This document shows, in pieces, positions 5,949-34,874 of a stretch of DNA of 34,938 nucleotides (the stretch's first letter is position 1; every line of letters begins with the position of its first letter). The stretch spans positions 1 to 34,938 of IMG/VR virus record IMGVR_UViG_3300023118_000124. One strand, given 5' to 3'. The notes below the pieces were generated by a model. The model was not told the origin of the DNA. It ran no database searches and worked only from the letters and a program-made list of their open reading frames with translations. A program made the translations under genes and the position numbers. Source of the DNA: a virus (lineage: Duplodnaviria; Caudoviricetes).

Positions 5949-6151
5949 ACGATGTCCGCACTGTAGCTGTCGGTATCCACGGGTTTTAGCCCGCCCGCCT
6001 GGTTGATCAAATCCACCGTGGTCCATGGCCCCCTTCGCCCACTGAAAATTCGAATGCCTTGGGAGCGCAACGCTTTTTCAACGTCAGCCCGGCGGCTATA
6101 TCCGGTTACGCGTTGTAAGTCTTCAAACTCTAGTACACGGGCTGCGCTCAT
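5945..6151 (-). CDS. Excisionase-like small HTH protein (DUF4224-like)
   Basis: MSAARVLEFEDLQRVTGYSRRADVEKALRSQGI, GGAGG RBS, immediately upstream of int. Confidence 0.7.
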   Translation of the reverse strand: MSAARVLEFEDLQRVTGYSRRADVEKALRSQGIRIFSGRRGPWTTVDLINQAGGLKPVDTDSYSADIV

Positions 6152-7134
6152 GCTGCCTCCACGGTTATTGGCTCCCAGGCCGACTCGCACAGCCCGTAGG
6201 CGCTGGAGCAGGCGGAGGCGTCAGTAGCAATCAGTAGGTCGTATTGGATGCCGCCTCGGGCTGTCTTGGACCATTCAACTGCCTGGCGAATGCTTGCGAT
6301 CTCCATGACTTCAATGGCAGTCATGTCCGCGATAGAGCCTTTCGGATGCTTGGCATTTGATCCGGCAAAGAACGTGGCAGCACCGCGCTTGCTGGCCTGC
6401 TGGACGGTTCGCTCCCAGCGATCGATACGGTCAATCGCTTCAGGGAATCGAAGGGCAATTTCGCGTAACTCATCCTTGCGGCAGTTGATGCAGGGCATGC
6501 AGCCGACGCGCCCCATGCCCTGGGAATAAAGCGGATTTGGTTTGATACCCATGTAGCGGTGAGCTTCGAACACGGCTGGAATATCCCACTTTAAGATCGG
6601 CCGGTAGTTAAATAGGCCGTCACCAACTTCGTCGCACTCGGGCAAATATCGCCTGTTAAGCGATTCCTCTGCGCGCACACCCTGCCAGCTCAGAATCATG
6701 TCGCCGGCACCCATCAAAGGCATGACTACTTGTTCAAACATAGGGTCGCGTTTCAGCTCCATGGTGCAGAACTGGGCTTTGCGGCTAGGGGACCGGCCTT
6801 TCCAGATGCACAGGTCTAGGAACGGGTTACCGGTTGGCTGCAGCACGTCCAACGCTGCCAGCACTACCTCCTCTGCTATGCCTTGCGCCCGCCATTTCGA
6901 TTCGATGAATCGGCGCTTGCCTTCAATACGCTGGGTGAAATCAGCACGCACGCGGGTTATTTTCGTGCGTGTGGCTTGTTCCAGGTAATCCAGGTATTCG
7001 TGGGTCTGTTGATGCTCGTTGCCGGTGTCCGCGAAGACGGCCTGCAGGTTGGGTGCCTCTAAGGCAATGGCGACCAGTAGCGTCGCCGTGCTGTCTTTAC
7101 CGCCGCTGAGGCTGATGATGTTGTGCGTAGTCAT
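6148..7134 (-). CDS. Phage PAPS-reductase-family protein
   Basis: SLSGGKDS PP-loop, FADTGNE, FCTMELK, GVRAEESLNR, NPLYSQGMGRVGCMPC. Confidence 0.9.
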   Translation of the reverse strand: MTTHNIISLSGGKDSTATLLVAIALEAPNLQAVFADTGNEHQQTHEYLDYLEQATRTKITRVRADFTQRIEGKRRFIESKWRAQGIAEEVVLAALDVLQPTGNPFLDLCIWKGRSPSRKAQFCTMELKRDPMFEQVVMPLMGAGDMILSWQGVRAEESLNRRYLPECDEVGDGLFNYRPILKWDIPAVFEAHRYMGIKPNPLYSQGMGRVGCMPCINCRKDELREIALRFPEAIDRIDRWERTVQQASKRGAATFFAGSNAKHPKGSIADMTAIEVMEIASIRQAVEWSKTARGGIQYDLLIATDASACSSAYGLCESAWEPITVEAA

Positions 7135-7631
7135 TGATGGTCTCCCGAAGCATCACCATCAGCAGGCGCATCCAGTAAGGCGTGCAGCCCCTCAAGGTTC
7201 TGCATTAGGATCAGCTCAAGGGCTTTGACGCTGATATGAACAGAATCTGGATTGTCATCCGGCTCATGCTCGCAGATGTCGCGGATGATGGTTGCTACGG
7301 TTTTGGTGGTAGTGACGGGTTTGGCAGGCACAACTAGCAGGGCGCGCACATCCTCATCCGCCCTGAAATCCCGTAAGGCCTCCTGAACCTCCACGGAATC
7401 AAGGATGCGGCCAGACAAAACTCTCGCCGTCGTGATAATCGAATCAATTAGCCCAACTGTAACGCCGACATCAGTTCGGCAATCGGTTTGCGTAACCGGT
7501 TTACACAAGCCTTCGTTAATCTGATCAATGTCAGAACACAGGTATACCGATTCACGCCGAGAAACACCCCATTCGCCAATGCTTACCCGGTATCGTTTCG
7601 GCATGCCGTCTATCGTTTGCTTGATGGTCAT
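7131..7631 (-). CDS. Hypothetical phage protein
   Basis: ORF 7131-7778; likely start MTIKQ at 7631 after GAGG, avoiding overlap with upstream gene; ATGA coupling downstream. Confidence 0.6.
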   Translation of the reverse strand: MTIKQTIDGMPKRYRVSIGEWGVSRRESVYLCSDIDQINEGLCKPVTQTDCRTDVGVTVGLIDSIITTARVLSGRILDSVEVQEALRDFRADEDVRALLVVPAKPVTTTKTVATIIRDICEHEPDDNPDSVHISVKALELILMQNLEGLHALLDAPADGDASGDHQ

Positions 7632-7641
7632 GGTCAGGGCC

Positions 7642-7905
7642 TCAGTTGTGATTGCGGATCGAATAGCCCGCCAGCTTCTGCAGGGGATTCGGTCGTTCGC
7701 CGCGAGGATGAATGCCAATGCGCGCCTCGAGACCATCAAGGCTGACAGTGGCGCCGTCATAGTTGAGTCCTGGCTCAAGGCCCATGAACTGCATCGGAAC
7801 GCCGCATTGCATACATACGATGCTGATCTCTGCCATAAACCGACCTTTGTTTTCGATGCGAGTAACGCCCACAGTTGCCTTCAAATCTTCATGTTTACAG
7901 GCCAT
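7642..7905 (-). CDS. Hypothetical phage protein with CxxC
   Basis: 87-aa ORF MACKHEDLK...CMQCG, GAGG RBS, fits operon. Confidence 0.65.
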   Translation of the reverse strand: MACKHEDLKATVGVTRIENKGRFMAEISIVCMQCGVPMQFMGLEPGLNYDGATVSLDGLEARIGIHPRGERPNPLQKLAGYSIRNHN

Positions 7906-8371
7906 GGCAACCCACCTCTGACTGGATCGCGGCGTCGATCGATTGGTCTAGATCCTCTCCGTTCAATACAACGTTCTGAGGTGTTTTCCCTGCGAACACA
8001 CCGCCCAAGTGAATGGTGTTAAGGGGGCGATCGCGCAGCCACCGATAACGTTCGACGTCTGTACGCATGCCTGTGTTTTCGGCCACCAGCAGATCCAGCT
8101 GCTCATCCGCAGCGGTCAGGCGCTGTTGCAGTTCATCCGCGCGGCGCCAAAGATCGAAGTCTGGTACCGGTTTACCGGCCATTCGGTGCTTAAGCATTGC
8201 CCAGACCAGGTGGTACTCTGGCCAATCGCTTTCGATAACCACGTATTGGCGCGGTGATTGACCGATTGCTGTGAGGGCACGCCCGAGCATTTCCCGATCC
8301 TTGGCGCGGTGATTGACCAGATCGCTGCGTTTGATGACGATGTAACGATCTTCGGTTTTGAAATCGCTCAT
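7895..8371 (-). CDS. Hypothetical phage early protein (ead-region type)
   Basis: MSDFKTEDRYIVIKRSD..YVVIESDWPEY..VW; coiled coil; DVERYRWLRD..DQSIDAAI; GGAGG RBS. Confidence 0.75.
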   Translation of the reverse strand: MSDFKTEDRYIVIKRSDLVNHRAKDREMLGRALTAIGQSPRQYVVIESDWPEYHLVWAMLKHRMAGKPVPDFDLWRRADELQQRLTAADEQLDLLVAENTGMRTDVERYRWLRDRPLNTIHLGGVFAGKTPQNVVLNGEDLDQSIDAAIQSEVGCHGL

Positions 8372-8417
8372 ACAACCTCCATCGTTACCAGATGATGTGT
8401 TCATGACCATCTCCCTG

Positions 8418-8669
8418 TTACATCCGAAACGATTGATGAGCACGCGACGGCAGTAGCTTCTGCTCTGCGGGTTGTGCGCCGTCGGATTGGATCTCACACA
8501 CGAATCTATGTCGTTTCCGGTTGTGCGCAGTCAACGCCTTGGTCAGATCAGGCAGAACGTCAATGCATTGCTCGTAGGCGTGAGGTCCCTTCCAGCTATT
8601 AGCCTTCACCACCTGGCAGTCTGTGCGGGTTGCGTCCGCGCACAGGTACAGCAGTAGGAAAACAGTCAT
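8418..8669 (-). CDS. Hypothetical small protein
   Basis: MTVFLLLYLCADATRTDCQVV; GGAGG RBS; ATGA overlap. Confidence 0.65.
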   Translation of the reverse strand: MTVFLLLYLCADATRTDCQVVKANSWKGPHAYEQCIDVLPDLTKALTAHNRKRHRFVCEIQSDGAQPAEQKLLPSRAHQSFRM

Positions 8670-9162
8670 ACAGCCTCCGAAACGATAGGAGGCAGCGATG
8701 CCTCTGCCTTCATGAAAACAATCCAGTGCGTGCCACCTTTCTTGCCGCTTGGGTGCCCGAACAGGGGCTGCTGGTCGGTAAGCGATAGAATTTGGCTGGT
8801 GCGGATCTGCGTTTCGTTCCACTTGAAAACCAGTACGCCGTCTGTGGCCAACACTCAGAAAAGCCACGCCGCAGGTCTTCCTGCCATGTATTCGGGTTGA
8901 GCACCCCGTACTTAGCCTTCATCCAACTTTCAGCCCCGGCACGTACCAGGTGCGGTGGGTCAAAAGAAACCAGCTTGAAGGCGCCGTCTGCATAGGGAAG
9001 GTCACGAAAATCAAGGGTGACATCGGGGCTGACAGTCAGGGTTCGTCCATCGCACAGGGATTTTTGCTCAGTTCTGATGTCACCGAAGATGACCGCTGGG
9101 TGCTTCTTATCGAACCAAAACATCCGGCTCCCGCAGCATGGGTCAAGGATTGTCTTGATCAT
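8666..9162 (-). pseudogene. Phage SAM-dependent (DPPH, amino-type) DNA methyltransferase, frameshifted
   Basis: ILDPCCGSRMFWFDK..FDPPHL..WQEDLRRGFSEC in one frame; LATDGVLVFKWNETQI..THWIVFMK in another; break near 8850. Confidence 0.85.
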
Positions 9163-11150
9163 GGCTGCTGCTCCAGTTGAGCCAGGCTCAACGCAATCGC
9201 CACCGGCTGCACCCAAATCGACACGTTGCTGAGCATGAACGTCTCCCCAGCCTCGGAAAGCAGCAGCGTCATGCCGAACACATCCGCCATTGCCCGTGCC
9301 GCTGCGCGTGGTACGGCGTTGCCAATCCGCTCCCGGTGCTGGCCGTCGTTGATTCCGTCCAGACGGAAGACTCCCGCCTGTTCAATCTTGCGAACGCGCT
9401 GCATGCGCTCAATCTCATGGGAGGTCTGTGGATCTGCTGACCAGTGATCTTCTGGGTCGAACAGTGATTGCAGCGCGGCCAACTCCAGAGTGGTGAACGG
9501 CCGGTGCCAGGCCCCGTCGAGGCTGGTGATCATGCAGGTCAGTCGATCGTTGTGCGCCGGCATGCGCTGATCGGCAACTGACCAGCGGCCGTTATCGTGA
9601 CAAGCACTGGCAGATACGGCGCCGGCCGGTGCGCTGTATTCGACCACGCCGTAATGCCCGCCAGTCAGGTACGCATCGCCCTTGCTGCGCGACATTCCTG
9701 GGCGAGGATCTGCGATCGATAACGCGCCGCTGGCAACCTGTTGCGAACCAGTCACGGTCTTGGCGCTCTCGCACCAGGGCGTGATCCGCAACTTTTGCGT
9801 GCTGGCATTCGGGTGCCATGTTTTATAGGCGGGATCTGCCACGGCGAAAGCGCCTTGCCCGGTGGTGCTGCCGGCGATGACGGTGCCGGCCGGCTTGCTG
9901 TAGTCGGTGACCAGGTACTTGCCGAAACCCTTGGACGGTTGCCGAGGGTCGGCCACGGCCTGCCCGCCAGAGCTCGGCCCGTGTCCTGCAGTGACAGTGC
10001 CGGCGGTTTGGTCATTGCGTACCACGCGGAACACATTATTGTGGCGCTCGCCGGTCATGCGCGGGTCAGCAACGCTGAACGTCCCTTGCCCCGGGCTGCG
10101 CTGACCGGTTACGACACCGCAGTGGCGGTCATAGGGCAGTACGCCGAATTGGGTGTACTCGAATTTGTTGGTGGGTCGCGGATCTGCCACGGAAAACTTG
10201 CCGTTCATTGGGCGGCTCGCACCTGCAACCACCCCGGCTGTATCGTCCCAATCGACAACCCCGAGTACGCCGTTGTGGTAGTCAGGCACGATCACAAAGT
10301 CGCGTAGGTGCCCGTCCTCGATCGCAAACCGGCTCAGGCTGCGCCAATCCTTCCCGGCCTCGACCAAGGCCAGGCGTACCCATGTTTTCCACTGCAACGC
10401 CGGCACGCGGTGCATCGGCCCAGCCTGATCTATATCGCCTGCCAGGGGCATGCGGCTCAGCACGTCACCGACGGCACGCAGGCTGCGTTTCTCTGGTTCG
10501 TACAGGAACGCCGGCACCTTCTCGACGTGCCTGGCCACCAGCAAGAAGCGCTTGCGGCTCTGGGCCAACCCGCCAATTTCGCCACAGTCGTGGGTGGTTT
10601 CAGCCACCGCGTAGCCGTAGTGCCTTAGTAGCTTGGTGATCTGGTCCAGCAAGTACCGGCCACGAGTGGCCAAGCGCGGTACGTTTTCGAACACGATCAG
10701 CGACACCGGGTTGTGCTTCCAGGCTTCGCACATCAGCCATACGCAACGCAACGTCAGCTCATTGAGCGCCCGGTATTTGGGCGTCTGGCTCATGGTCTCG
10801 GACAAAAGGCCCGAGGCACCCTTGCAGGGACTGCTGATGAACACTGCATCCGGATCTTCGTTGCCGGCAGCGCGGCGCAGATCCTCGGCGGTGGCTTCCT
10901 TCCAACCGGTGGGAGGCTGCTGGCCATGGAACGCGGTGAACTGCTCGCGTGTGAACAGATCCATGAGCGTGCCAGGCACACCGGTCATCATTTGGAAATC
11001 GCGCAACCCGGCGGGGTCGACGTCGACGCCACCCAGGCAGCGCCATTCAGCTTGCACAGGTCCTAGGACCGGTTTGGAGTCGCTGAAACCAGCAGCGCCG
11101 CTGCCGAGGCCGCAGCAAAGATGGAAGTGGGTGAGGGTGCGCTTAAGCAT
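9159..11150 (-). CDS. DNA (cytosine-5) methyltransferase with repeated variable region
   Basis: Start MLKRTL (GGAGG RBS); motif I LCCGLGSG, IV SSPCKG, VI FENVP, VIII QSRKR, X IGNAVP; six ~40-aa ADPR repeats. Confidence 0.92.
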   Translation of the reverse strand: MLKRTLTHFHLCCGLGSGAAGFSDSKPVLGPVQAEWRCLGGVDVDPAGLRDFQMMTGVPGTLMDLFTREQFTAFHGQQPPTGWKEATAEDLRRAAGNEDPDAVFISSPCKGASGLLSETMSQTPKYRALNELTLRCVWLMCEAWKHNPVSLIVFENVPRLATRGRYLLDQITKLLRHYGYAVAETTHDCGEIGGLAQSRKRFLLVARHVEKVPAFLYEPEKRSLRAVGDVLSRMPLAGDIDQAGPMHRVPALQWKTWVRLALVEAGKDWRSLSRFAIEDGHLRDFVIVPDYHNGVLGVVDWDDTAGVVAGASRPMNGKFSVADPRPTNKFEYTQFGVLPYDRHCGVVTGQRSPGQGTFSVADPRMTGERHNNVFRVVRNDQTAGTVTAGHGPSSGGQAVADPRQPSKGFGKYLVTDYSKPAGTVIAGSTTGQGAFAVADPAYKTWHPNASTQKLRITPWCESAKTVTGSQQVASGALSIADPRPGMSRSKGDAYLTGGHYGVVEYSAPAGAVSASACHDNGRWSVADQRMPAHNDRLTCMITSLDGAWHRPFTTLELAALQSLFDPEDHWSADPQTSHEIERMQRVRKIEQAGVFRLDGINDGQHRERIGNAVPRAAARAMADVFGMTLLLSEAGETFMLSNVSIWVQPVAIALSLAQLEQQP

Positions 11151-11427
11151 GGGAGGCCTCCCGCGCGGCAAAGCAGCAATTCCCCGAAACGTGCATATAC
11201 CCCACGACAGGCTGCGCGGGCGGGCGTCCCGAAGCGGTAAGCGTTGCATCACTGACCGCTGCCCCGCGCAGCTTTTCGTGGGGTATACGTGCCTCGGCAG
11301 TGGCGCTGGAAGGAGCAATAATGCCTGCTGCTGCGCAGCAGAGACTGTTTGTTTCTGACGTGTCGACACCACTGGTGCTGCGGAGCAAAGCGGGCAGGGC
11401 GCAGGTGTTTTCCTGTTGGTTCTTCAT
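11143..11427 (-). CDS. Hypothetical protein
   Basis: MKNQQENTC... fills the gap with overlaps at both ends. Confidence 0.5.
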   Translation of the reverse strand: MKNQQENTCALPALLRSTSGVDTSETNSLCCAAAGIIAPSSATAEARIPHEKLRGAAVSDATLTASGRPPAQPVVGYMHVSGNCCFAAREASHA

Positions 11428-19684: not shown

Positions 19685-19713
19685 AAAAACCCGGCCCTCG
19701 CGTCGGGTTTTTT
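19685..19713 (+). terminator. Intrinsic terminator (tR'-like)
   Basis: AAAAACCCGGC-CCTCGC-GTCGGGTTTTTT. Confidence 0.8.
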
Positions 19714-19769
19714 CATTTCTCCTCAGGCGTACGACTCCGTACAGATAAATTTTCCTTTGGAGCTAAGAG

Positions 19770-20069
19770 ATGGAGCGAGATCAGAGGCTGTTGGTGAAAA
19801 TCCTAGAGGTGTGCATTCAGGACTCAGAGGAGTGGAGGATTGATGCATCAGCGAAGGACATTCGTAGTCGCTTCTCCCCTGAGCAGCTAGGCCAGTGGTC
19901 TGCCGTTATTGTGGATGGCCACATTGAGCTGCTCGTCGACATGGGCTGTGTTAACGCTGATGGGGAGGCGCCGAATGCACGTATTCAGCGAGTTACCAAC
20001 GCCGGATACAACTATCTCGACAGAAGCAAAAGGTTGAGTTTGCACGGCAATGTGCTTCCCATCCATTAG
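19770..20069 (+). CDS. DUF2513-like winged-helix moron protein
   Basis: MERDQRLLVKIL..GHIELLVDMG..RVTNAGYNYLD pattern; GGAG RBS. Confidence 0.7.
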   Translation: MERDQRLLVKILEVCIQDSEEWRIDASAKDIRSRFSPEQLGQWSAVIVDGHIELLVDMGCVNADGEAPNARIQRVTNAGYNYLDRSKRLSLHGNVLPIH

Positions 20070-20084
20070 CATGACAATGATTTG

Positions 20085-20109
20085 AACCCTGCCTAGTGCA
20101 GGGCTTTTT
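20085..20109 (+). terminator. Intrinsic terminator
   Basis: CCCTGC-CTAGT-GCAGGG-CTTTTT. Confidence 0.8.
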
Positions 20110-20163
20110 GTTGGCGCGTCGACGCGATGATGAATTCTCAGCGAGCTCTGATATGATTGCGCC

Positions 20164-20251
20164 GCCATTCCTCAGTCCGCCCTCCATCCCTCTCATTTGG
20201 GGGCTGGACTGAGGAGTGGTCTTAACCCGACCATCGAGTCGGTTTTTTTTT
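20164..20251 (+). ncRNA. Candidate phage small RNA
   Basis: Extended -10 TGaTATGAT (20149-20157), ~20-bp hairpin 20165-20219 with C/U-rich loop, terminator CCGAC-CATCGA-GTCGG-T9; no ATG inside. Confidence 0.55.
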
Positions 20252-20310
20252 GCGCTCACATTGTCGAAGGCCGAAAAATAGGGCCTGTGACTACACACAG
20301 GGAGAGCGTC

Positions 20311-20535
20311 ATGGTTTTGCGTGGCATGGCACAGATGCATGTCGACGACTTGGCTGAAAGATTCAAGACGTTGGTCGTTGGGCATTCTGGTGAAGCGGAC
20401 ATCCAATTTGCATGGGTTGTTTTTTATCAAGGGCGAATGTTTGGCGCGTATTCAACTGCTGAGCAAGCTCTCCAGAAAATCACGGATATTGAGCACTGCA
20501 TTAGCGTTGATGAGGTCCCCGTCCCTCAAACCTAA
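20311..20535 (+). CDS. Hypothetical moron protein (74 aa)
   Basis: ATG after AGGGAG; bounded by terminators; lower GC. Confidence 0.6.
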   Translation: MVLRGMAQMHVDDLAERFKTLVVGHSGEADIQFAWVVFYQGRMFGAYSTAEQALQKITDIEHCISVDEVPVPQT

Positions 20536-20556
20536 TCTGACTAACTTCCCATTCAA

Positions 20557-20580
20557 GTCCTGCCCAGTGCAGGGCTTTTT
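20557..20580 (+). terminator. Intrinsic terminator
   Basis: GTCCTGC-CCAGT-GCAGGGC-TTTTT. Confidence 0.8.
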
Positions 20581-20598
20581 CGTTTAAGGGGCAAGGCA

Positions 20599-20943
20599 AT
20601 GACGAACGAACAGCAAGCGCTGGCAGAAATGCCGATCTGGTTAGTGATCGTCCTGGCCCTGGTGGGCGGTGTGTCGGGCGAGATGTGGCGAGCGGACAAG
20701 GAGGGTGCCCGGGGTTGGGCATTGATGCGGCGGTTGGCCCTTCGGTCCGGCGCCTGCGTGGTGTGCGGGGTATCGGCGATCATGCTGCTGTACGCTGCGG
20801 GTATGTCGATCTGGACGTCCGGCGCACTGGGATGCCTCACCGCCATGGCAGGGGCAGACGTTGCCATCGGGCTGTACGAGCGCTGGACTGCCAAGCGCCT
20901 CGGCCTCCAGGAGGCTGAAGCCAAGGGTGAGGCCGGACCTTAA
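20599..20943 (+). CDS. Phage holin (PA0614-like)
   Basis: MTNEQQALAEMPIWLVIVLALVGGVSGEMWRADK..three TM segments..AGADVAIGLYERW. Confidence 0.88.
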   Translation: MTNEQQALAEMPIWLVIVLALVGGVSGEMWRADKEGARGWALMRRLALRSGACVVCGVSAIMLLYAAGMSIWTSGALGCLTAMAGADVAIGLYERWTAKRLGLQEAEAKGEAGP

Positions 20944-20956
20944 TCATCCAGGGGCA

Positions 20957-21694
20957 ATGACCATGATGCGACTTGAGATGCGTGACAACATCGACAAGAT
21001 CGTCAGGGAGATGCGTGGGCTCAGCAAGTCGAAGGTCCCAATAGCTGCTGCCAAAGCGCTGACCTTCACCGCCGAACGCGTCCAAGCAGCTGAGAAGGCC
21101 GAGCTTGAGCGGGTGTTTGATCGACCCACACGTTGGACGCTCAACTCGGTCTTTAAGCGCAGTGCCACGACCAGCCGGCTGTTCGCCCGGGTGTGGATCA
21201 AGGACGAAGCCAGTTCAGGCGTGCCCGCGTCCAAGTACCTGCCGGTGCACATTGACGGTGGTAACCGACCACACAAGCGATTTGAGAAAGCGCTGATCCA
21301 CTACGGCTTGATGCCAGCTGACATGTACGCCGTCCCTGGTCGGCGCGCCAGGATGGATGGCAACGGCAATATCAGTCGCGGCCAGATCGTGCAGATCTTG
21401 TCCGCACTCGGAGCAGCTGAGCGGGTGTCGGGCTTCATGGCCAACCGCACTCAGCGCAGCCGGCGCCGTAACCGCAACGTACCGGACTATTTCGTGGGTC
21501 GACCTGGCAACGGCACCGGCCCTTTGGGTATCTGGCAGCGGATCGGCAACGGGGCACGGCCCATCCTGATCTTCGTCAAGCGCCCGACCTATCGGCGGCG
21601 CTTTGACTTCTACGGGGTAGCCAATCGCGTCGCCGAGGCCGAGTTCGAGCCGCTGTTCCGGCGTGCCCTGGCACGGGAGATGGAGCGAGGCTGA
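20957..21694 (+). CDS. Conserved phage morphogenesis-type protein (basic)
   Basis: AAAKALTFTA..FDRPTRWTLNS..DGNGNISRGQ..YRRRFDFY; lies before terminase. Confidence 0.75.
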   Translation: MTMMRLEMRDNIDKIVREMRGLSKSKVPIAAAKALTFTAERVQAAEKAELERVFDRPTRWTLNSVFKRSATTSRLFARVWIKDEASSGVPASKYLPVHIDGGNRPHKRFEKALIHYGLMPADMYAVPGRRARMDGNGNISRGQIVQILSALGAAERVSGFMANRTQRSRRRNRNVPDYFVGRPGNGTGPLGIWQRIGNGARPILIFVKRPTYRRRFDFYGVANRVAEAEFEPLFRRALAREMERG

Positions 21695-21795
21695 CCTCTT
21701 GTCGGCTTCGTGCATTTCTCCTTAAAAAAATGGCGATTTTTCAATGATTTGTCGGGGTTTTGGCTTGACAGGTCGACCTTCGACCCAAAATCAAT

Positions 21796-30334: not shown

Positions 30335-31090
30335 ATGCAAATCGCATTCGGCAGCGGGTTGTTTTACGCCACTCCGCTGATGGACGCTTATGGCAATGCC
30401 ATTTCCGCGCCGACTCCCATCCTGCTGGGCATCATGCAAGAAGCATCGGTGGACCTGTCGTTTGATTCTAAAGAATTGTTCGGCAGCGAGCAGTTTGCGG
30501 TTGACGCGGCGCGGGGCCAGGGCAAGCTGACGGGCAAGGCCAAGTCCGCCCAGATAAGCCTGCTGCAGTGGAATCAACTGGTGTTTGGGCAGACCTTGAT
30601 CACCGGCCAGGTGCTAGTCCATCACGCGACGGTACCCACGGTGATCCCAGCAGGGGCCACGATAAGCGTGTCGCCCCCAGCGGGCGGGACGCTCTCCGGT
30701 GATCTTGGGGTACGGGGGGCCGGTGCGATCCCTTACGTACGGGTATTGAGCGCGCCGACAGTTGGGCAGTACACCTTTGATGCCGCAACGGGGGAATATG
30801 CATTTGCCGCTGCAGACGTGGCCAAGTCGGTGTTCATTGATTACCGCTACACCGTTACGACGGGCAAAAGCCTGTCGGTGAAAAACCTGCCCATGGGCGA
30901 CATGCCGGTGTTCCAGGGCGAGTTGGTCCTGAAATACAAGGGAAAGACCGTGTATGTGCGCGTACCTAATTTCGTCAGCAACAAGCTAGGCATCGCCACC
31001 AAACAGGACGACTACGCCATCCCGGACTTTGAATTCACCGGCTACGCGGATGAGTTTGGGGAGGTTTGCTATTGGAGTGCCAACGAATGA
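30335..31090 (+). CDS. Major tail (tube) protein
   Basis: FGSG..SVDLSFDSKELFG..KQDDYAIPDFEF; before chaperone and tape measure. Confidence 0.8.
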   Translation: MQIAFGSGLFYATPLMDAYGNAISAPTPILLGIMQEASVDLSFDSKELFGSEQFAVDAARGQGKLTGKAKSAQISLLQWNQLVFGQTLITGQVLVHHATVPTVIPAGATISVSPPAGGTLSGDLGVRGAGAIPYVRVLSAPTVGQYTFDAATGEYAFAAADVAKSVFIDYRYTVTTGKSLSVKNLPMGDMPVFQGELVLKYKGKTVYVRVPNFVSNKLGIATKQDDYAIPDFEFTGYADEFGEVCYWSANE

Positions 31091-31434
31091 ACGTCGTAAA
31101 TGTGCCTGGAGTTTCGTTTCCGTTTCCAGGGAAAACGCTCGTCATCCCACCCCTGGCGCTGGGGGATCTGGAGCAACTGCTGGAGCGGATCAACGCGGTA
31201 ATGGCCGGCAATATGGACCGGGACAGTATCGCCACGGTGATCGATGCCACCCATGCAGCATTGCGTCGGAACTACCCGGACATTGAGCGTGCAGAGGTGG
31301 CAGCGCTGCTGGACCTTCGCAACATGCGTGACGCGTTGGATGCTGTTATGAGCGCCTCGGGCTTGGAGGTCACAGAGTCCGCAGCGGGGGAAGGATTGGC
31401 CCCTTCGACTGGGGCCAACTCTACGCTCACCTGA
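31087..31434 (+). CDS. Tail assembly chaperone (G-like)
   Basis: ATGA-coupled start MNVVNVPG; ALRRNYPD; slippery site near 3' end. Confidence 0.8.
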   Translation: MNVVNVPGVSFPFPGKTLVIPPLALGDLEQLLERINAVMAGNMDRDSIATVIDATHAALRRNYPDIERAEVAALLDLRNMRDALDAVMSASGLEVTESAAGEGLAPSTGANSTLT

Positions 31435-31697
31435 TCGCCAGTACCGGGCAAAGCCCGGTCACGCTTCGACGTGATTGGGACATGGTCATGGTTGGGCATA
31501 TGACTGATTACTGGCGTAGCTATCCGCCGGTTCATGTTCTAGTCGCTGGCTATATGGGCTACAAACCGGATCGAGATCTCACAGATGCGCCTTATTTTGC
31601 AGAAGCCCTTACAGGTATTGCTGCTGATCTGCGTGATGAATTACCTGAACATCTCCGGAGCGCTCTAGACAACTTTTTTAAGAGTAATAATTGTTAG
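31386..31697 (+). CDS. -1 frameshift extension of tail chaperone (GT-like)
   Basis: GGGGGAA at 31386-31392; -1 frame open: GRIGPFDWGQLYAHLIASTGQ..DYWRSYPPVHVLVAGYMGYKP to TAG 31697. Confidence 0.75.
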   Translation, partial: GGRIGPFDWGQLYAHLIASTGQSPVTLRRDWDMVMVGHMTDYWRSYPPVHVLVAGYMGYKPDRDLTDAPYFAEALTGIAADLRDELPEHLRSALDNFFKSNNC

Positions 31698-31903
31698 CCT
31701 ACGAGTTCAGTACCGGTGATAAAGCTAACGGCACTAATATGCTTGTGTAACAGGACAGTCTTCCCGTTACGTTCAATCTCAACTAGAACGTAGTCTTCTG
31801 AAACTGCGGCTATTCTTCCAGAGAATAGGTCGCCTGCAAATTCAAAAAGCGCTCTTACGTCTTGGTTGTGCATGTGTTTAAGTTTTTCTTTAAATGCCGG
31901 CAT
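31694..31903 (-). CDS. Hfq/Sm-like small protein (moron)
   Basis: AGDLFSGRIAAVSEDYVLV (Sm1-like) and LLHKHISAV (cf. Hfq YKHAISTV); CAGGA RBS; AT-rich, antisense to tail genes. Confidence 0.65.
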   Translation of the reverse strand: MPAFKEKLKHMHNQDVRALFEFAGDLFSGRIAAVSEDYVLVEIERNGKTVLLHKHISAVSFITGTELVG

Positions 31904-32102
31904 AGTGTTTCCTGAGATAACTCTCTGTATCGTTTAAATGTGTAGCTTTTCCAGCTTGCATGTGTGTTAGGCATGCCTGGTTGTTAAAAGTTTAAAAAGA
32001 ATTATTTTACGATGTTGCTGAATTTTGACTATTTTGAGAGCGCTTATTATTTGGTTTTGTTTCGCGTTTCTTTGGGGCTCGGTGTTTGAATGAGGTAGCG
32101 GT

Positions 32103-34874
32103 ATGGACAGGAATATTACTTATCAATTCACAGCCGGCACTCAAGGTTTTGATCGCGCAGTTGAAAGTATAGAGCGCAATATGCGTGATGCCCGTGCGAC
32201 GTTTGGTCGCGAGCTGAGAGCAATCAACACCGAGATGGTCGGTAGTCAAACCCGGCTCGCTCGTTTTGGTCCGGCAGTCAATGAAGCGTTCTCCGGCGTC
32301 AGTACCATCATGCGTTCGGGGCTCGGTGGTGTGGCGGCTGGCATTGCCGGTGTGTTTGGTCTTGGCGCTTTCAAGCTGGGTCAAATCGTTAGCGATAGCA
32401 AGGACGCGGTGATCCAACAAGAGTCTGCTTATCGTGGTCTGGAAGCGGTGGCCAATCATGCTGGCGTCGGTATTGGCCGGGCCATGGATGAGGCCAATAA
32501 GCTCGCCTCCGACGGCTTGCTCAGCGTCGGTGACGCGGCCAAAGCCCTGCAAAACCTGCTCAGTCGTGGCTACAACGTCGACCAGTCCGTGGCGGTGATC
32601 AACCGCCTGAAGGACGCTGCAGCGTTCAACCGGCAAGCCAATCTCAGCATGTCGGAAGCAGTTGTGTCGGCCACCGAGGGTTTGAAAAACGAAAACTCGG
32701 TGTTGGTGGATAACGCCGGTGTCACCAAAAACGTCGCTAAAATGTGGGACGAATACGCCAAAAGTATTGGTACTAGCCGTGACAAGTTGTCCGACTCGCA
32801 AAAGATCACGGCCGAATACAACGGCATTATGAAAGAGACCGAGGCCCAGGTCGGTAATGCTGCCAAGGCGGCAGATGGGTTGACCGGCAGCCAGGCCGAG
32901 CTCGACTCCAAAAGCAACCAGCTGCAGGTCACCATCGGTACCATTCTTGAGCCTGTCTTCATCAGCCTGAACAAGCGGCTGTCTGAGACTGCCAGTTGGT
33001 TCAATAACCTCCTGAAAAGCATGACGGGGGTTGGGGTGACCGTTGATGAGGTCGCTGCCAATGTCGCCCGCTATGAACAAGTGCTGTCGAATTTCACGGC
33101 AGGTCCACGTGCTGGAGGCAGTAAGGCACCGCTTGAAGCCACACTGGCCGAGGAGCGCCTGCTGCTGGAAAACATGCAGTTGGTGTCCAACAAGCTAGAA
33201 GAAGTGGACGCGGGTATGCGCTCCCGTTCCGCTCGCATCGAAGAGCAGCGGCGCAAAGTGGCCGAGATGGCCGCGACCGGTAATACAGCCCTGACCAAGG
33301 CACCACAACAGGGCAGGACAAGTCCGACCGCTTACGGCGTTGAAGTCGCCCGGTTGACCAAGCTGGAGCAGGCATACGCTGCAGCGGTCGAGCATCGGAA
33401 AAAAGTGGTTGAGTACACGACGCCTCCTAAAAAAGCGGATGACCCGGTGAGCGCGCCGGCGAAGACCAAGTCACGGGTCAGTGAGTGGGCCGAAGCATTG
33501 GACGCGCAGAAGGTCGCTCACGCCCAGCAGCAGGCCGAGCAGGGCACGTTTCTGCAGTTCTCCGAACAGCAGGAAATGCAGTACTGGCAGGGCATTCTCA
33601 AGCGTACGGATTTGAGCGCGGCCGAACGCTTGAGCGTTCAACGCAATTACCTGGCGTCATTGAATGCGTTGCGCCGGCAGGACGAAGGCCAGGCCTTTGC
33701 CGATCTGCAGGCCCAGGCACAGCAGTACCGCAACAATATGGACGCGCGCCTGCAGATCGCTCAGCAGACATTAGAGCGCAGCCGGCAACTCTACGGCCAG
33801 GACAGTCAGGAATACCGCAAGGCTGCGGCTGAGGTGGTTGCTGTCGAGCGCGAAAAGCAGCAGCAAATCACCAACATGAAACAGCAACAGCTGGCCGCTG
33901 ATCAGCAGGCGCGGCTTACCGATGTTGCCCATGCCGAACAGATGGCCCAGCTGGATCTGCAGGCCAACCTGATCACCCAAGGCCAACTGCTGCAGGCCCA
34001 AGCCGAGTTCGAAAAGCAACGGTATGCGATCGAAGCTCAGGCATTGGCCGAGCGTAAAGCACTGCTGGAGCAGGATCCTGACCGTAACCCGGTCGCCCTG
34101 CAGCAGGTCCAGCAGCAGATCCTGGCGCTGGAGCAAACCCACCGAAACAGCATGGCGGTGATGGGCAGGCAGCAAACCTTGGAGTCGCAAAGTAACTGGA
34201 CGGGCATGGTCGACAGTTTGCGTACCAGTTGGTCGAGCGGGTTGAGCGGGATCTTGAGCGGCACCTTGAGCACCCAGGGCCTGCTGCGTGGGATCTTCAC
34301 GAGCATCGGGACCGCATTCGTTGAAAACATGGTCACGAAGCCATTGATGGCCTGGATTTTTGGAGAGACGGCTAAAACCGGTGCGACGGTAGTCGGAGTT
34401 GGCGTTCGAACGGCAGCAGAGGCGGGCGGTGCAGCTATGTCCGTGGCGATCTGGGGTGCGGCGACGATCAAGAACATCATCGCCAGCGCCTGGCAAGCCA
34501 TGGCTGGTGCTTTCGCAGCCATGTCCGCCATTCCAATCATTGGTCCGATCCTCGGTGCGGCGGCTGCAGTGGCTGCCGGCGCATTCGTATTTGGCCTGGT
34601 GAAAAACGTCGCCTCTGCCGAGGGCGGCTACGACATCCCCGCTGGTACCAATCCCATGACGCAACTCCACGAGCAGGAAATGGTGCTGCCCAAGCAATAC
34701 GCCAATGTCATTCGCCAGGCAGCCAATGGCGAAGGGCAGTTGGGAGGCGCTGGCAACAGCTATCACTACCACGACAACAGCGGGCGAATGTCACCTGCTG
34801 ATATTCGGCGTGGTGCCCGGGTGCTGGCCGAGGAAATGCAGAAAATGCGGCGCAACGGCGCCATCAAAACTTAG
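32103..34874 (+). CDS. Tape measure protein
   Basis: 923 aa, Ala/Gln-rich helical, LVDNAGVTKN, C-terminal ASAEGGYDIP..QLHEQEMVLP; GAGG RBS. Confidence 0.92.
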   Translation: MDRNITYQFTAGTQGFDRAVESIERNMRDARATFGRELRAINTEMVGSQTRLARFGPAVNEAFSGVSTIMRSGLGGVAAGIAGVFGLGAFKLGQIVSDSKDAVIQQESAYRGLEAVANHAGVGIGRAMDEANKLASDGLLSVGDAAKALQNLLSRGYNVDQSVAVINRLKDAAAFNRQANLSMSEAVVSATEGLKNENSVLVDNAGVTKNVAKMWDEYAKSIGTSRDKLSDSQKITAEYNGIMKETEAQVGNAAKAADGLTGSQAELDSKSNQLQVTIGTILEPVFISLNKRLSETASWFNNLLKSMTGVGVTVDEVAANVARYEQVLSNFTAGPRAGGSKAPLEATLAEERLLLENMQLVSNKLEEVDAGMRSRSARIEEQRRKVAEMAATGNTALTKAPQQGRTSPTAYGVEVARLTKLEQAYAAAVEHRKKVVEYTTPPKKADDPVSAPAKTKSRVSEWAEALDAQKVAHAQQQAEQGTFLQFSEQQEMQYWQGILKRTDLSAAERLSVQRNYLASLNALRRQDEGQAFADLQAQAQQYRNNMDARLQIAQQTLERSRQLYGQDSQEYRKAAAEVVAVEREKQQQITNMKQQQLAADQQARLTDVAHAEQMAQLDLQANLITQGQLLQAQAEFEKQRYAIEAQALAERKALLEQDPDRNPVALQQVQQQILALEQTHRNSMAVMGRQQTLESQSNWTGMVDSLRTSWSSGLSGILSGTLSTQGLLRGIFTSIGTAFVENMVTKPLMAWIFGETAKTGATVVGVGVRTAAEAGGAAMSVAIWGAATIKNIIASAWQAMAGAFAAMSAIPIIGPILGAAAAVAAGAFVFGLVKNVASAEGGYDIPAGTNPMTQLHEQEMVLPKQYANVIRQAANGEGQLGGAGNSYHYHDNSGRMSPADIRRGARVLAEEMQKMRRNGAIKT

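What the first reader, a model, noticed from the sequence alone, without database searches (positions are those of the whole stretch)
31694..32090. Prophage moron encoding an Hfq/Sm-like protein inserted antisense in the tail operon
Seen: a 69-aa ORF on the opposite strand, in an AT-rich patch between the tail chaperone and the tape measure. It has its own RBS and a possible promoter (TAGTCA-16-TAAAAT, ~32004-32031). By-eye alignment to E. coli Hfq: N-terminal helix, GDLFSGRIAAVSEDYVLV vs GIKLQGQIESFDQFVILL, and LLHKH-ISAV vs MVYKHAISTV. K56/H57 and an aromatic at F42, which form Hfq's U-binding face, are retained. Inference: a lysogen-expressed RNA chaperone, a partner of the phage sRNA at 20164, or a subunit that poisons host Hfq/Crc hexamers. 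It could also be a defence protein.
Basis: partly seen in the sequence, partly recalled or inferred. Interest (0 to 1): 0.78.

Follow-up and report, generated by a model that had tools for sequence, protein, structure and literature searches.

The report
Prophage add-on gene with Hfq-like fold
A Pseudomonas prophage carries, in a frequently swapped slot among its tail genes, a small conserved gene whose protein is predicted to fold like the bacterial RNA chaperone Hfq but lacks most of Hfq's RNA-binding residues, so it likely works by binding another protein, possibly to protect the host from other phages.

Summary
The gene is real. The 69-aa antisense ORF lies in a 40% GC insert between tail chaperone and tape measure, belongs to a small family whose named members are all Pseudomonas, and is under purifying selection. 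The slot is a moron hotspot: of 27 complete related loci, 9 carry this gene (always antisense), 7 are empty, 11 carry other cargo. AlphaFold predicts helix plus five strands, with Hfq as top match (Z 8.2-8.6, near background). It is not an Hfq-family member: no Pfam hit, hhalign probability 3%. The F42 position is Asp, Y25 is always acidic, Q8 is absent, and the protein is acidic. The K-H pair is conserved, but the model places it two residues out of register. The 20164 hairpin does not co-occur with the gene (3/12 versus 3/16). Two new observations: a 1.5-kb chromosomal phage remnant keeps the gene under selection, and a distant clade sits behind a lipoprotein gene. Best reading: a lysogen-expressed protein binder, likely anti-phage. 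Expression, oligomer and function are untested.

The parts
31694..31903 (-). 69-aa gene, predicted Sm/Hfq-like small beta-barrel with N-terminal helix
   Evidence: (dN/dS 0.04-0.08 where measurable)
31910..31913 (-). Shine-Dalgarno-like AGGA, 6 nt before the ATG
   Evidence: purine-rich sites before the start in the other leaders
32004..32031 (-). promoter-like site; positionally conserved block in relatives, function untested
31698..32102 (.). low-GC cassette filling the variable slot between tail chaperone and tape measure
31087..31697 (+). two-part tail assembly chaperone (31087-31434 plus an overlapping second frame open from 31362 to 31697; frameshift inferred); its stop overlaps the moron's stop
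   Evidence: PHROG matches of unknown function only, so the name rests on position and layout
32103..34874 (+). tape measure protein
   Evidence: phrog_27190, E 6e-31
19690..20649 (+). second accessory block (99-aa gene, hairpin, 74-aa gene, holin start) that is joined directly to the Sm-like gene in the chromosomal remnants of G001 and G177
20164..20220 (+). strong hairpin with C-rich loop, followed by a terminator-like stem; not linked to the Sm-like gene
   Evidence: z -6.2; no Rfam match

Best explanation
This is a swappable prophage accessory gene (moron) whose small acidic protein is predicted to have an Sm/Hfq-like barrel, is likely made in the lysogen from its own promoter, and likely acts by binding a partner protein rather than RNA, most probably to hinder other phages. 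Shown: real conserved gene, swappable slot, loss of most Hfq RNA contacts, retention under selection on a chromosome after the phage was deleted. Predicted: the fold. Inferred: lysogen expression (antisense orientation, upstream block), protein-binding mode (acidic surface, Rof precedent), anti-phage role (slot precedent, allele turnover). The target is unknown; the conserved polar residues E21, E44, N46, K54 and H55 are the candidate binding surface.
For: Slot survey found with the neighbouring chaperone, not with the gene: 9 of 27 complete loci carry it, all antisense; 7 empty; 11 carry lipoproteins, an acyltransferase or a peptidase pair. Alleles are 48-97% identical to the window's while the tape measure is 85-96% in the same nine loci, with synonymous sites saturated: old alleles exchanged among close phages. 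The HK97 gp15 exclusion moron occupies this same slot (PMC3594210, passages); Tab is a minus-strand, self-promoted defence moron in a Pseudomonas late operon (PMC10884400, passages). In G001 and G177 a 1.5-kb remnant keeps the ORF and the upstream block, pN/pS 0.09 between them, beside a broken holin: benefit to the host. Fold: five of five models pLDDT 82-86, Hfq top in VIA and Foldseek. Rof is an Sm-like protein that works by binding Rho (PMC11018626, passages).
Against: No defence-library match (PADLOC 0 hits). The other slot cargo is mostly envelope proteins, while this protein shows no signal peptide or membrane helix by eye. No counter-defence partner is evident. Survival in a remnant fits any host benefit, not only defence. 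The promoter site is chance-level on its own and no terminator was found on its strand. K54/H55 conservation could mark a remaining nucleotide or ring contact. Best Z 8.2-8.6 is only just above the 7-8 typical of unrelated models, and a designed SH3 barrel ties with Hfq.
Confidence: 0.42

Rival explanations
1. The protein is an Hfq mimic: it enters or caps host Hfq rings through the edge strands and, with its acidic faces, damps Hfq/Crc regulation or Hfq use by incoming phages.
For: Hfq chains fill 7 of the top 8 VIA rows; same length and topology; acidic where Hfq is basic; T4 uses host Hfq as a neck gate (PMC12929587, abstract).
Against: 10-16% structural identity to Hfq chains; profile scores at most 5 bits; poisoning a global regulator would likely cost the lysogen; rows within 1 Z unit are tied and include non-Hfq barrels.
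Confidence: 0.15
2. It is a Rof-like regulator of a host enzyme or transcription factor (for example Rho) that aids the lysogen's physiology without acting against phages.
For: Rof/YaeO appears among fold matches (Z 7.1 and 5.7); acidic; kept on the chromosome.
Against: No sequence link to Rof; rapid cargo exchange in the slot fits an arms race better than housekeeping control.
Confidence: 0.15
3. It is a true RNA chaperone ring serving phage or host small RNAs.
For: Fold; G34 counterpart kept in 18 of 20; K54/H55 conserved and aligned to K56/H57 by hhalign; the 20164 region lies next to the gene in two remnants.
Against: Q8 absent, F42 = D/E/G, Y25 = E/D, K31 never basic, mean net charge -2.4 against +3.7; no co-occurrence with the hairpin; hairpin z falls from -5.8 to -1.9 and -1.0 in the remnants.
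Confidence: 0.11
4. It is the cytoplasmic partner of an envelope lipoprotein; the phage captured the small gene from a two-gene chromosomal unit.
For: The most distant clade lies 14-22 nt behind a roughly 260-aa lipoprotein gene in 3 of 3 loci fetched, and accessions or locus tags are adjacent in three named Pseudomonas records; slot cargo is envelope-centred.
Against: The lipoprotein has no match in the window or the phage loci held nor in viral contigs; that clade is 28-38% identical; a distant lipoprotein relative shows no such gene behind it by eye.
Confidence: 0.12
5. The protein is incidental; the antisense transcript running into the tail genes is what matters.
For: Stops overlap and no minus-strand terminator was found.
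Against: Purifying selection on the protein, also where the tail genes are gone.
Confidence: 0.03

Closest known systems
Hfq (PF17209; S. aureus 1kq1, Synechocystis 3hfo, Listeria 4nl2)
   Same: Predicted helix plus five-strand barrel of the same size; top structural match (Z 8.6, rmsd 1.8, 58 aligned; second model Z 8.2, rmsd 2.1); Gly in strand 2; a K-H pair late in strand 4.
   Different: No significant sequence or profile match; longer strand 3-4 hairpin; proximal, distal and rim residues mostly replaced; acidic; patchy and mobile rather than core; ring not shown.
Rof/YaeO
   Same: Small Sm-like protein of Pseudomonadota acting through a protein partner.
   Different: No sequence link; Rof is chromosomal with a known target (Rho).
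HK97 gp15 moron (superinfection exclusion)
   Same: Same slot between tail chaperone and tape measure; small; has non-phage chromosomal relatives.
   Different: gp15 is an inner-membrane protein; this one is a predicted soluble barrel.
Tab of Pseudomonas phage JBD26 (and Tai systems, seen in a search listing only)
   Same: Small minus-strand moron with its own promoter inside a late operon.
   Different: Tab lies between the terminase genes and has an anti-Tab neighbour; no such partner is seen here; no similarity was tested directly.
DUF6897 / DUF2642 / Veg small barrels
   Same: Nearest Atlas clusters by features (0.92-0.93; family on 10-17% of members where given); one source names a relative 'DUF2642 domain-containing'.
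   Different: No Pfam hit to these families; those clusters are mostly Bacillota or Planctomycetota.

Membership tests
Hfq (PF17209) | Profile match above the curated cut-off | tested here: not met
   No hit for the query or 12 relatives; at most 5 bits against an Hfq profile of 23 sequences; hhalign probability 3.2%; BLASTP no alignment
Hfq (PF17209) | Sm fold: N-terminal helix and five bent strands | tested here: met
   Predicted only; fold searches
Hfq (PF17209) | Conserved Gly in strand 2 (PMC3710371, passage) | tested here: met
   G29 in 18 of 20 rows
Hfq (PF17209) | [Y/F]KH motif before the last strand (motif seen) | tested here: inconclusive
   K54/H55 conserved and aligned by sequence; model secondary structure shifts the register by two; no residue-level superposition was available
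Hfq (PF17209) | Proximal uridine pocket Q8/F42 (residue roles recalled) | tested here: not met
   No Q8 counterpart; F42 position D11/E6/G3 of 20
Hfq (PF17209) | Distal face Y25/K31 and basic rim (K31, R16, R17 named in PMC5606850; Y25 recalled) | tested here: not met
   Y25 = E18/D2; K31 = L/P/V/M; R16 = K10/E9/N1; median pI 5.6 versus 9.9
Hfq (PF17209) | Homohexameric ring | not tested
   The complex tool's queue was full; no job ran
Hfq (PF17209) | RNA binding and annealing | not testable with these tools
   needs biochemistry
Prophage moron | Addition relative to related phages, with different base composition | tested here: met
Prophage moron | Own promoter | tested here: inconclusive
   chance-level alone; similar block in 6 of 9 leaders
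Prophage moron | Own terminator | tested here: not met
   none on the minus strand in 31400-32200 by consensus scan
Prophage moron | Expressed from the repressed prophage | not testable with these tools
   no RNA holder listed
Catalogued defence systems (PADLOC 2.0) | Profile match | tested here: not met
   0 hits for 4 family members
DUF2642 / DUF6897 | Pfam profile match | tested here: not met
   Atlas resemblance only

The most novel reading that the evidence does not exclude
A prophage-encoded Hfq mimic: an acidic Sm subunit or ring that mixes with, or competes against, host Hfq, and so blocks phages that need host Hfq (as T4 does for its neck gate) or rewires Hfq/Crc control in the lysogen, and that bacteria have kept after discarding the rest of the phage.
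Probability: 0.13. Interest if true: 0.85.

Novelty: new variant of a known kind. Interest (0 to 1): 0.5.

Why it matters
It adds an uncatalogued family of Hfq-fold proteins that travels as prophage cargo, is retained by hosts, and appears to have dropped RNA binding. It is a ready candidate for a new small defence protein or an Hfq antagonist, testable with one 210-bp gene in a laboratory Pseudomonas strain. If it proves a plain accessory barrel, it still shows that an Hfq-looking K-H motif in a phage ORF need not mean an RNA chaperone.

Tried and rejected
Pfam, PHROGs, NCBIfam, PADLOC and PDB sequence searches gave nothing significant for the family. Long hits in the representative search: 4 of the 5 scanned are Tudor-repeat proteins and one is a low-complexity repeat; dropped as not fused family members, 4 others not examined. 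L006, L007, L015 and three weak genome matches were dropped as chance. No match in 50,697 phage or 72,556 plasmid records. No Rfam family in the window. Expression: no RNA holder listed; the four runs laid were contigs of relatives that did not cover the gene, no evidence either way. Oligomer prediction: queue full, no job ran, no verdict. The lipoprotein has no family or PDB match and close copies were not found in 401 genus or 401 phylum genomes sampled. Bona fide Hfq in viral contigs: 5 loci, 4 look like host flanks by eye. Earlier scan findings: none returned. Literature searches listed no paper on this family or on a prophage Hfq-like moron; the library lacks most subscription papers.

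Full report
Setting. The window is a 34.9-kb virus record of a temperate phage with integrase, CI-like repressor, primase, holin, lambda-type terminase and portal, head and long-tail genes. A 97% identical copy of the gene lies in a Pseudomonas contig, and every named relative is Pseudomonas.

The observation. The ORF is at 31694-31903 on the minus strand, 69 aa. The insert is 40% GC against 58%. Upstream lies a two-part gene with an overlapping second frame, the usual layout of a tail assembly chaperone (the name is inferred from layout and position), and downstream the tape measure. Among five gene copies, variable sites fall 24/14/65 on codon positions 1/2/3; dN/dS is 0.04-0.08 in the 3 of 10 pairs where synonymous sites are not saturated. 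The protein is therefore under selection. The promoter-like site is at chance level alone, but leaders that are otherwise unalike share a block at the same distance; a pattern written after seeing that alignment matches 6 of 9 leaders at -128 to -150 and 1-3% of shuffles. The spacer is 15 in five of them, which is short for sigma-70, so the block may be another kind of site.

The family. Searches gave 21 clusters at 90% identity, 28-100% identical to the query, plus one more from a metagenome. It was found in 5 of 401 sampled genus genomes. No Pfam, PHROG, NCBIfam or PADLOC family fits.

The slot. I fetched relatives with the neighbouring chaperone, independently of the gene. Of 29 loci, 2 were cut short and dropped; of 27, 9 carry the gene, all antisense, 7 have an 84-95 bp gap, and 11 carry other low-GC cargo: lipoprotein-like genes, an Acyl_transf_3 protein, a VasI-like protein, a peptidase with DUF4019. 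Several loci are near-identical phages, so these are not 27 independent events. Three further genomes carry the gene in the same slot; phage KT1 carries a different gene there. In the nine carriers the allele is 48-97% identical to ours while the tape measure is 85-96%. HK97 gp15, a superinfection exclusion moron, lies in this slot (PMC3594210, passages).

The fold. With six sequences one of five models was confident; with twenty, all five were (pLDDT 82-86): helix 2-13, strands 17-22, 25-34, 38-45, 48-55, a short helix 56-58 and a last strand from 61. VIA ranks S. aureus Hfq first (Z 8.6, rmsd 1.8, 58 aligned; Z 8.2, rmsd 2.1 for the second model), Hfq chains fill 7 of the top 8 rows in both, and a designed SH3 barrel, a Streptococcus protein of unknown function, YaeO and Tudor domains follow closely. 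Foldseek also ranks Hfq first, with no E below 0.001. The tool notes that unrelated models often reach Z 7-8. The call is: Sm-like small barrel, nearest to Hfq. Phage proteins with such folds are common in the viral library, two of them already named Hfq-like.

Is it Hfq? Against an alignment of 23 Hfq cores fetched here, hhalign gives 3.2%. Mapping onto the Pseudomonas Hfq: G34 is kept (18 of 20 rows); Q8 has no counterpart; F42 falls on D37; Y38 falls on V43 and is kept in 11 of 20; Y25 is E or D in all 20; K31 is never basic; R16 is K in 10 and E in 9. Mean net charge is -2.4 against +3.7. K54 and H55 are conserved throughout. By sequence they match K56/H57, at the price of a one-residue gap; but Hfq's short helix covers K56-A58 (recalled), and both models put it at I56-A58, which makes H55 the counterpart of Y55. 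I could not see coordinates, so this stays open. Proximal uridine binding, distal AAN binding and the basic rim are Hfq's working surfaces (PMC5606850, passages); most are not retained.

The sRNA link. The hairpin at 20164-20220 is real as a structure (z -6.2) with no Rfam match. Its full match occurs in 3 of 12 phage records with the gene and 3 of 16 without (Fisher p = 1); 28 records were counted, the two remnants apart, four slot loci were not submitted, and some records are fragments.

A domesticated remnant. In G001 and G177 the gene is not in a tail operon. Window 19690-20649 (two small genes, the hairpin region, a broken holin start) is joined straight to the end of the gene, and nothing else of the phage matches in 20 kb; in G177 a tRNA-Ser lies about 1.7 kb away. 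The junction is the same in both, so this is likely one event. Since then the gene shows 13.5 synonymous and 4.5 replacement differences (pN/pS 0.09), keeps the upstream block, and the hairpin has weakened (z -1.9, -1.0). This supports a host benefit from the protein.

A chromosomal clade. The most distant members lie just behind a roughly 260-aa lipoprotein gene on the same strand in 3 of 3 loci, and adjacent identifiers show the same pair in three named Pseudomonas records. The lipoprotein is not in the phage loci. The tree is unrooted, so the direction of capture is not shown.

Mechanism. Shown: conserved gene, swappable slot, loss of Hfq contacts, retention without the phage. Predicted: fold. 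Inferred: made in the lysogen, binds a protein as the Sm-like Rof does (PMC11018626, passages), and most likely hinders other phages, as gp15 and Tab do (PMC10884400, passages); 0.42. The Hfq-mimic reading (0.15) gains interest from T4's use of host Hfq at the neck (PMC12929587, abstract and two passages) but has no direct support; the ring prediction could not be run. Sm domains also occur as monomers and outside RNA biology (PMC3710371, passages). No supplements were read.

Verdict. Real and uncatalogued; a new variant of known kinds (moron, Sm-like barrel), not a phage Hfq on present evidence. Interest 0.5.

Noticed in passing
L081:10408-11979 and L082:8709-10273: A 1.5-kb chromosomal remnant that keeps only accessory genes of this phage type; the homolog of the 99-aa gene at window 19770 is also under selection there (pN/pS 0.11).
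   Followed up: partly
window 20164-20252: Strong hairpin with a C-rich, anti-Shine-Dalgarno-like loop plus terminator; present in 6 of 28 related phage records, no Rfam family; candidate phage small RNA.
   Followed up: partly
L039:3608-4614: Two cassettes stacked in the slot (this gene and an exported protein), separated by a duplicated 3' piece of the chaperone gene, pointing to exchange by recombination in that gene; the chaperone's 3' part is 65-74% identical in most relatives.
   Followed up: no
L116:17-865, L117:4184-4978, L118:2175-2951: Unnamed low-GC lipoprotein family with conserved cysteines, directly upstream of the distant members.
   Followed up: partly
L022, L024, L026, L027, L031 (slot regions): Other cargo of the slot: acyltransferase, VasI-like protein, papain-like peptidase with DUF4019, several lipoproteins; candidate exclusion or surface-modifying genes.
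   Followed up: partly
L114:2980-3216: A true Hfq-family gene in a 12-kb low-GC viral contig near an ORF that looks by eye like a terminase fragment; may be a phage-borne Hfq.
   Followed up: no
window 21215-21715 (-): Another antisense 166-aa ORF in the late region, just before the small terminase, without a family match; it overlaps the 20861-21694 gene and may be spurious.
   Followed up: no
window 6148-11372 (-): Early region carries a PAPS-reductase-domain gene and a 737-aa cytosine methylase-like gene.
   Followed up: no
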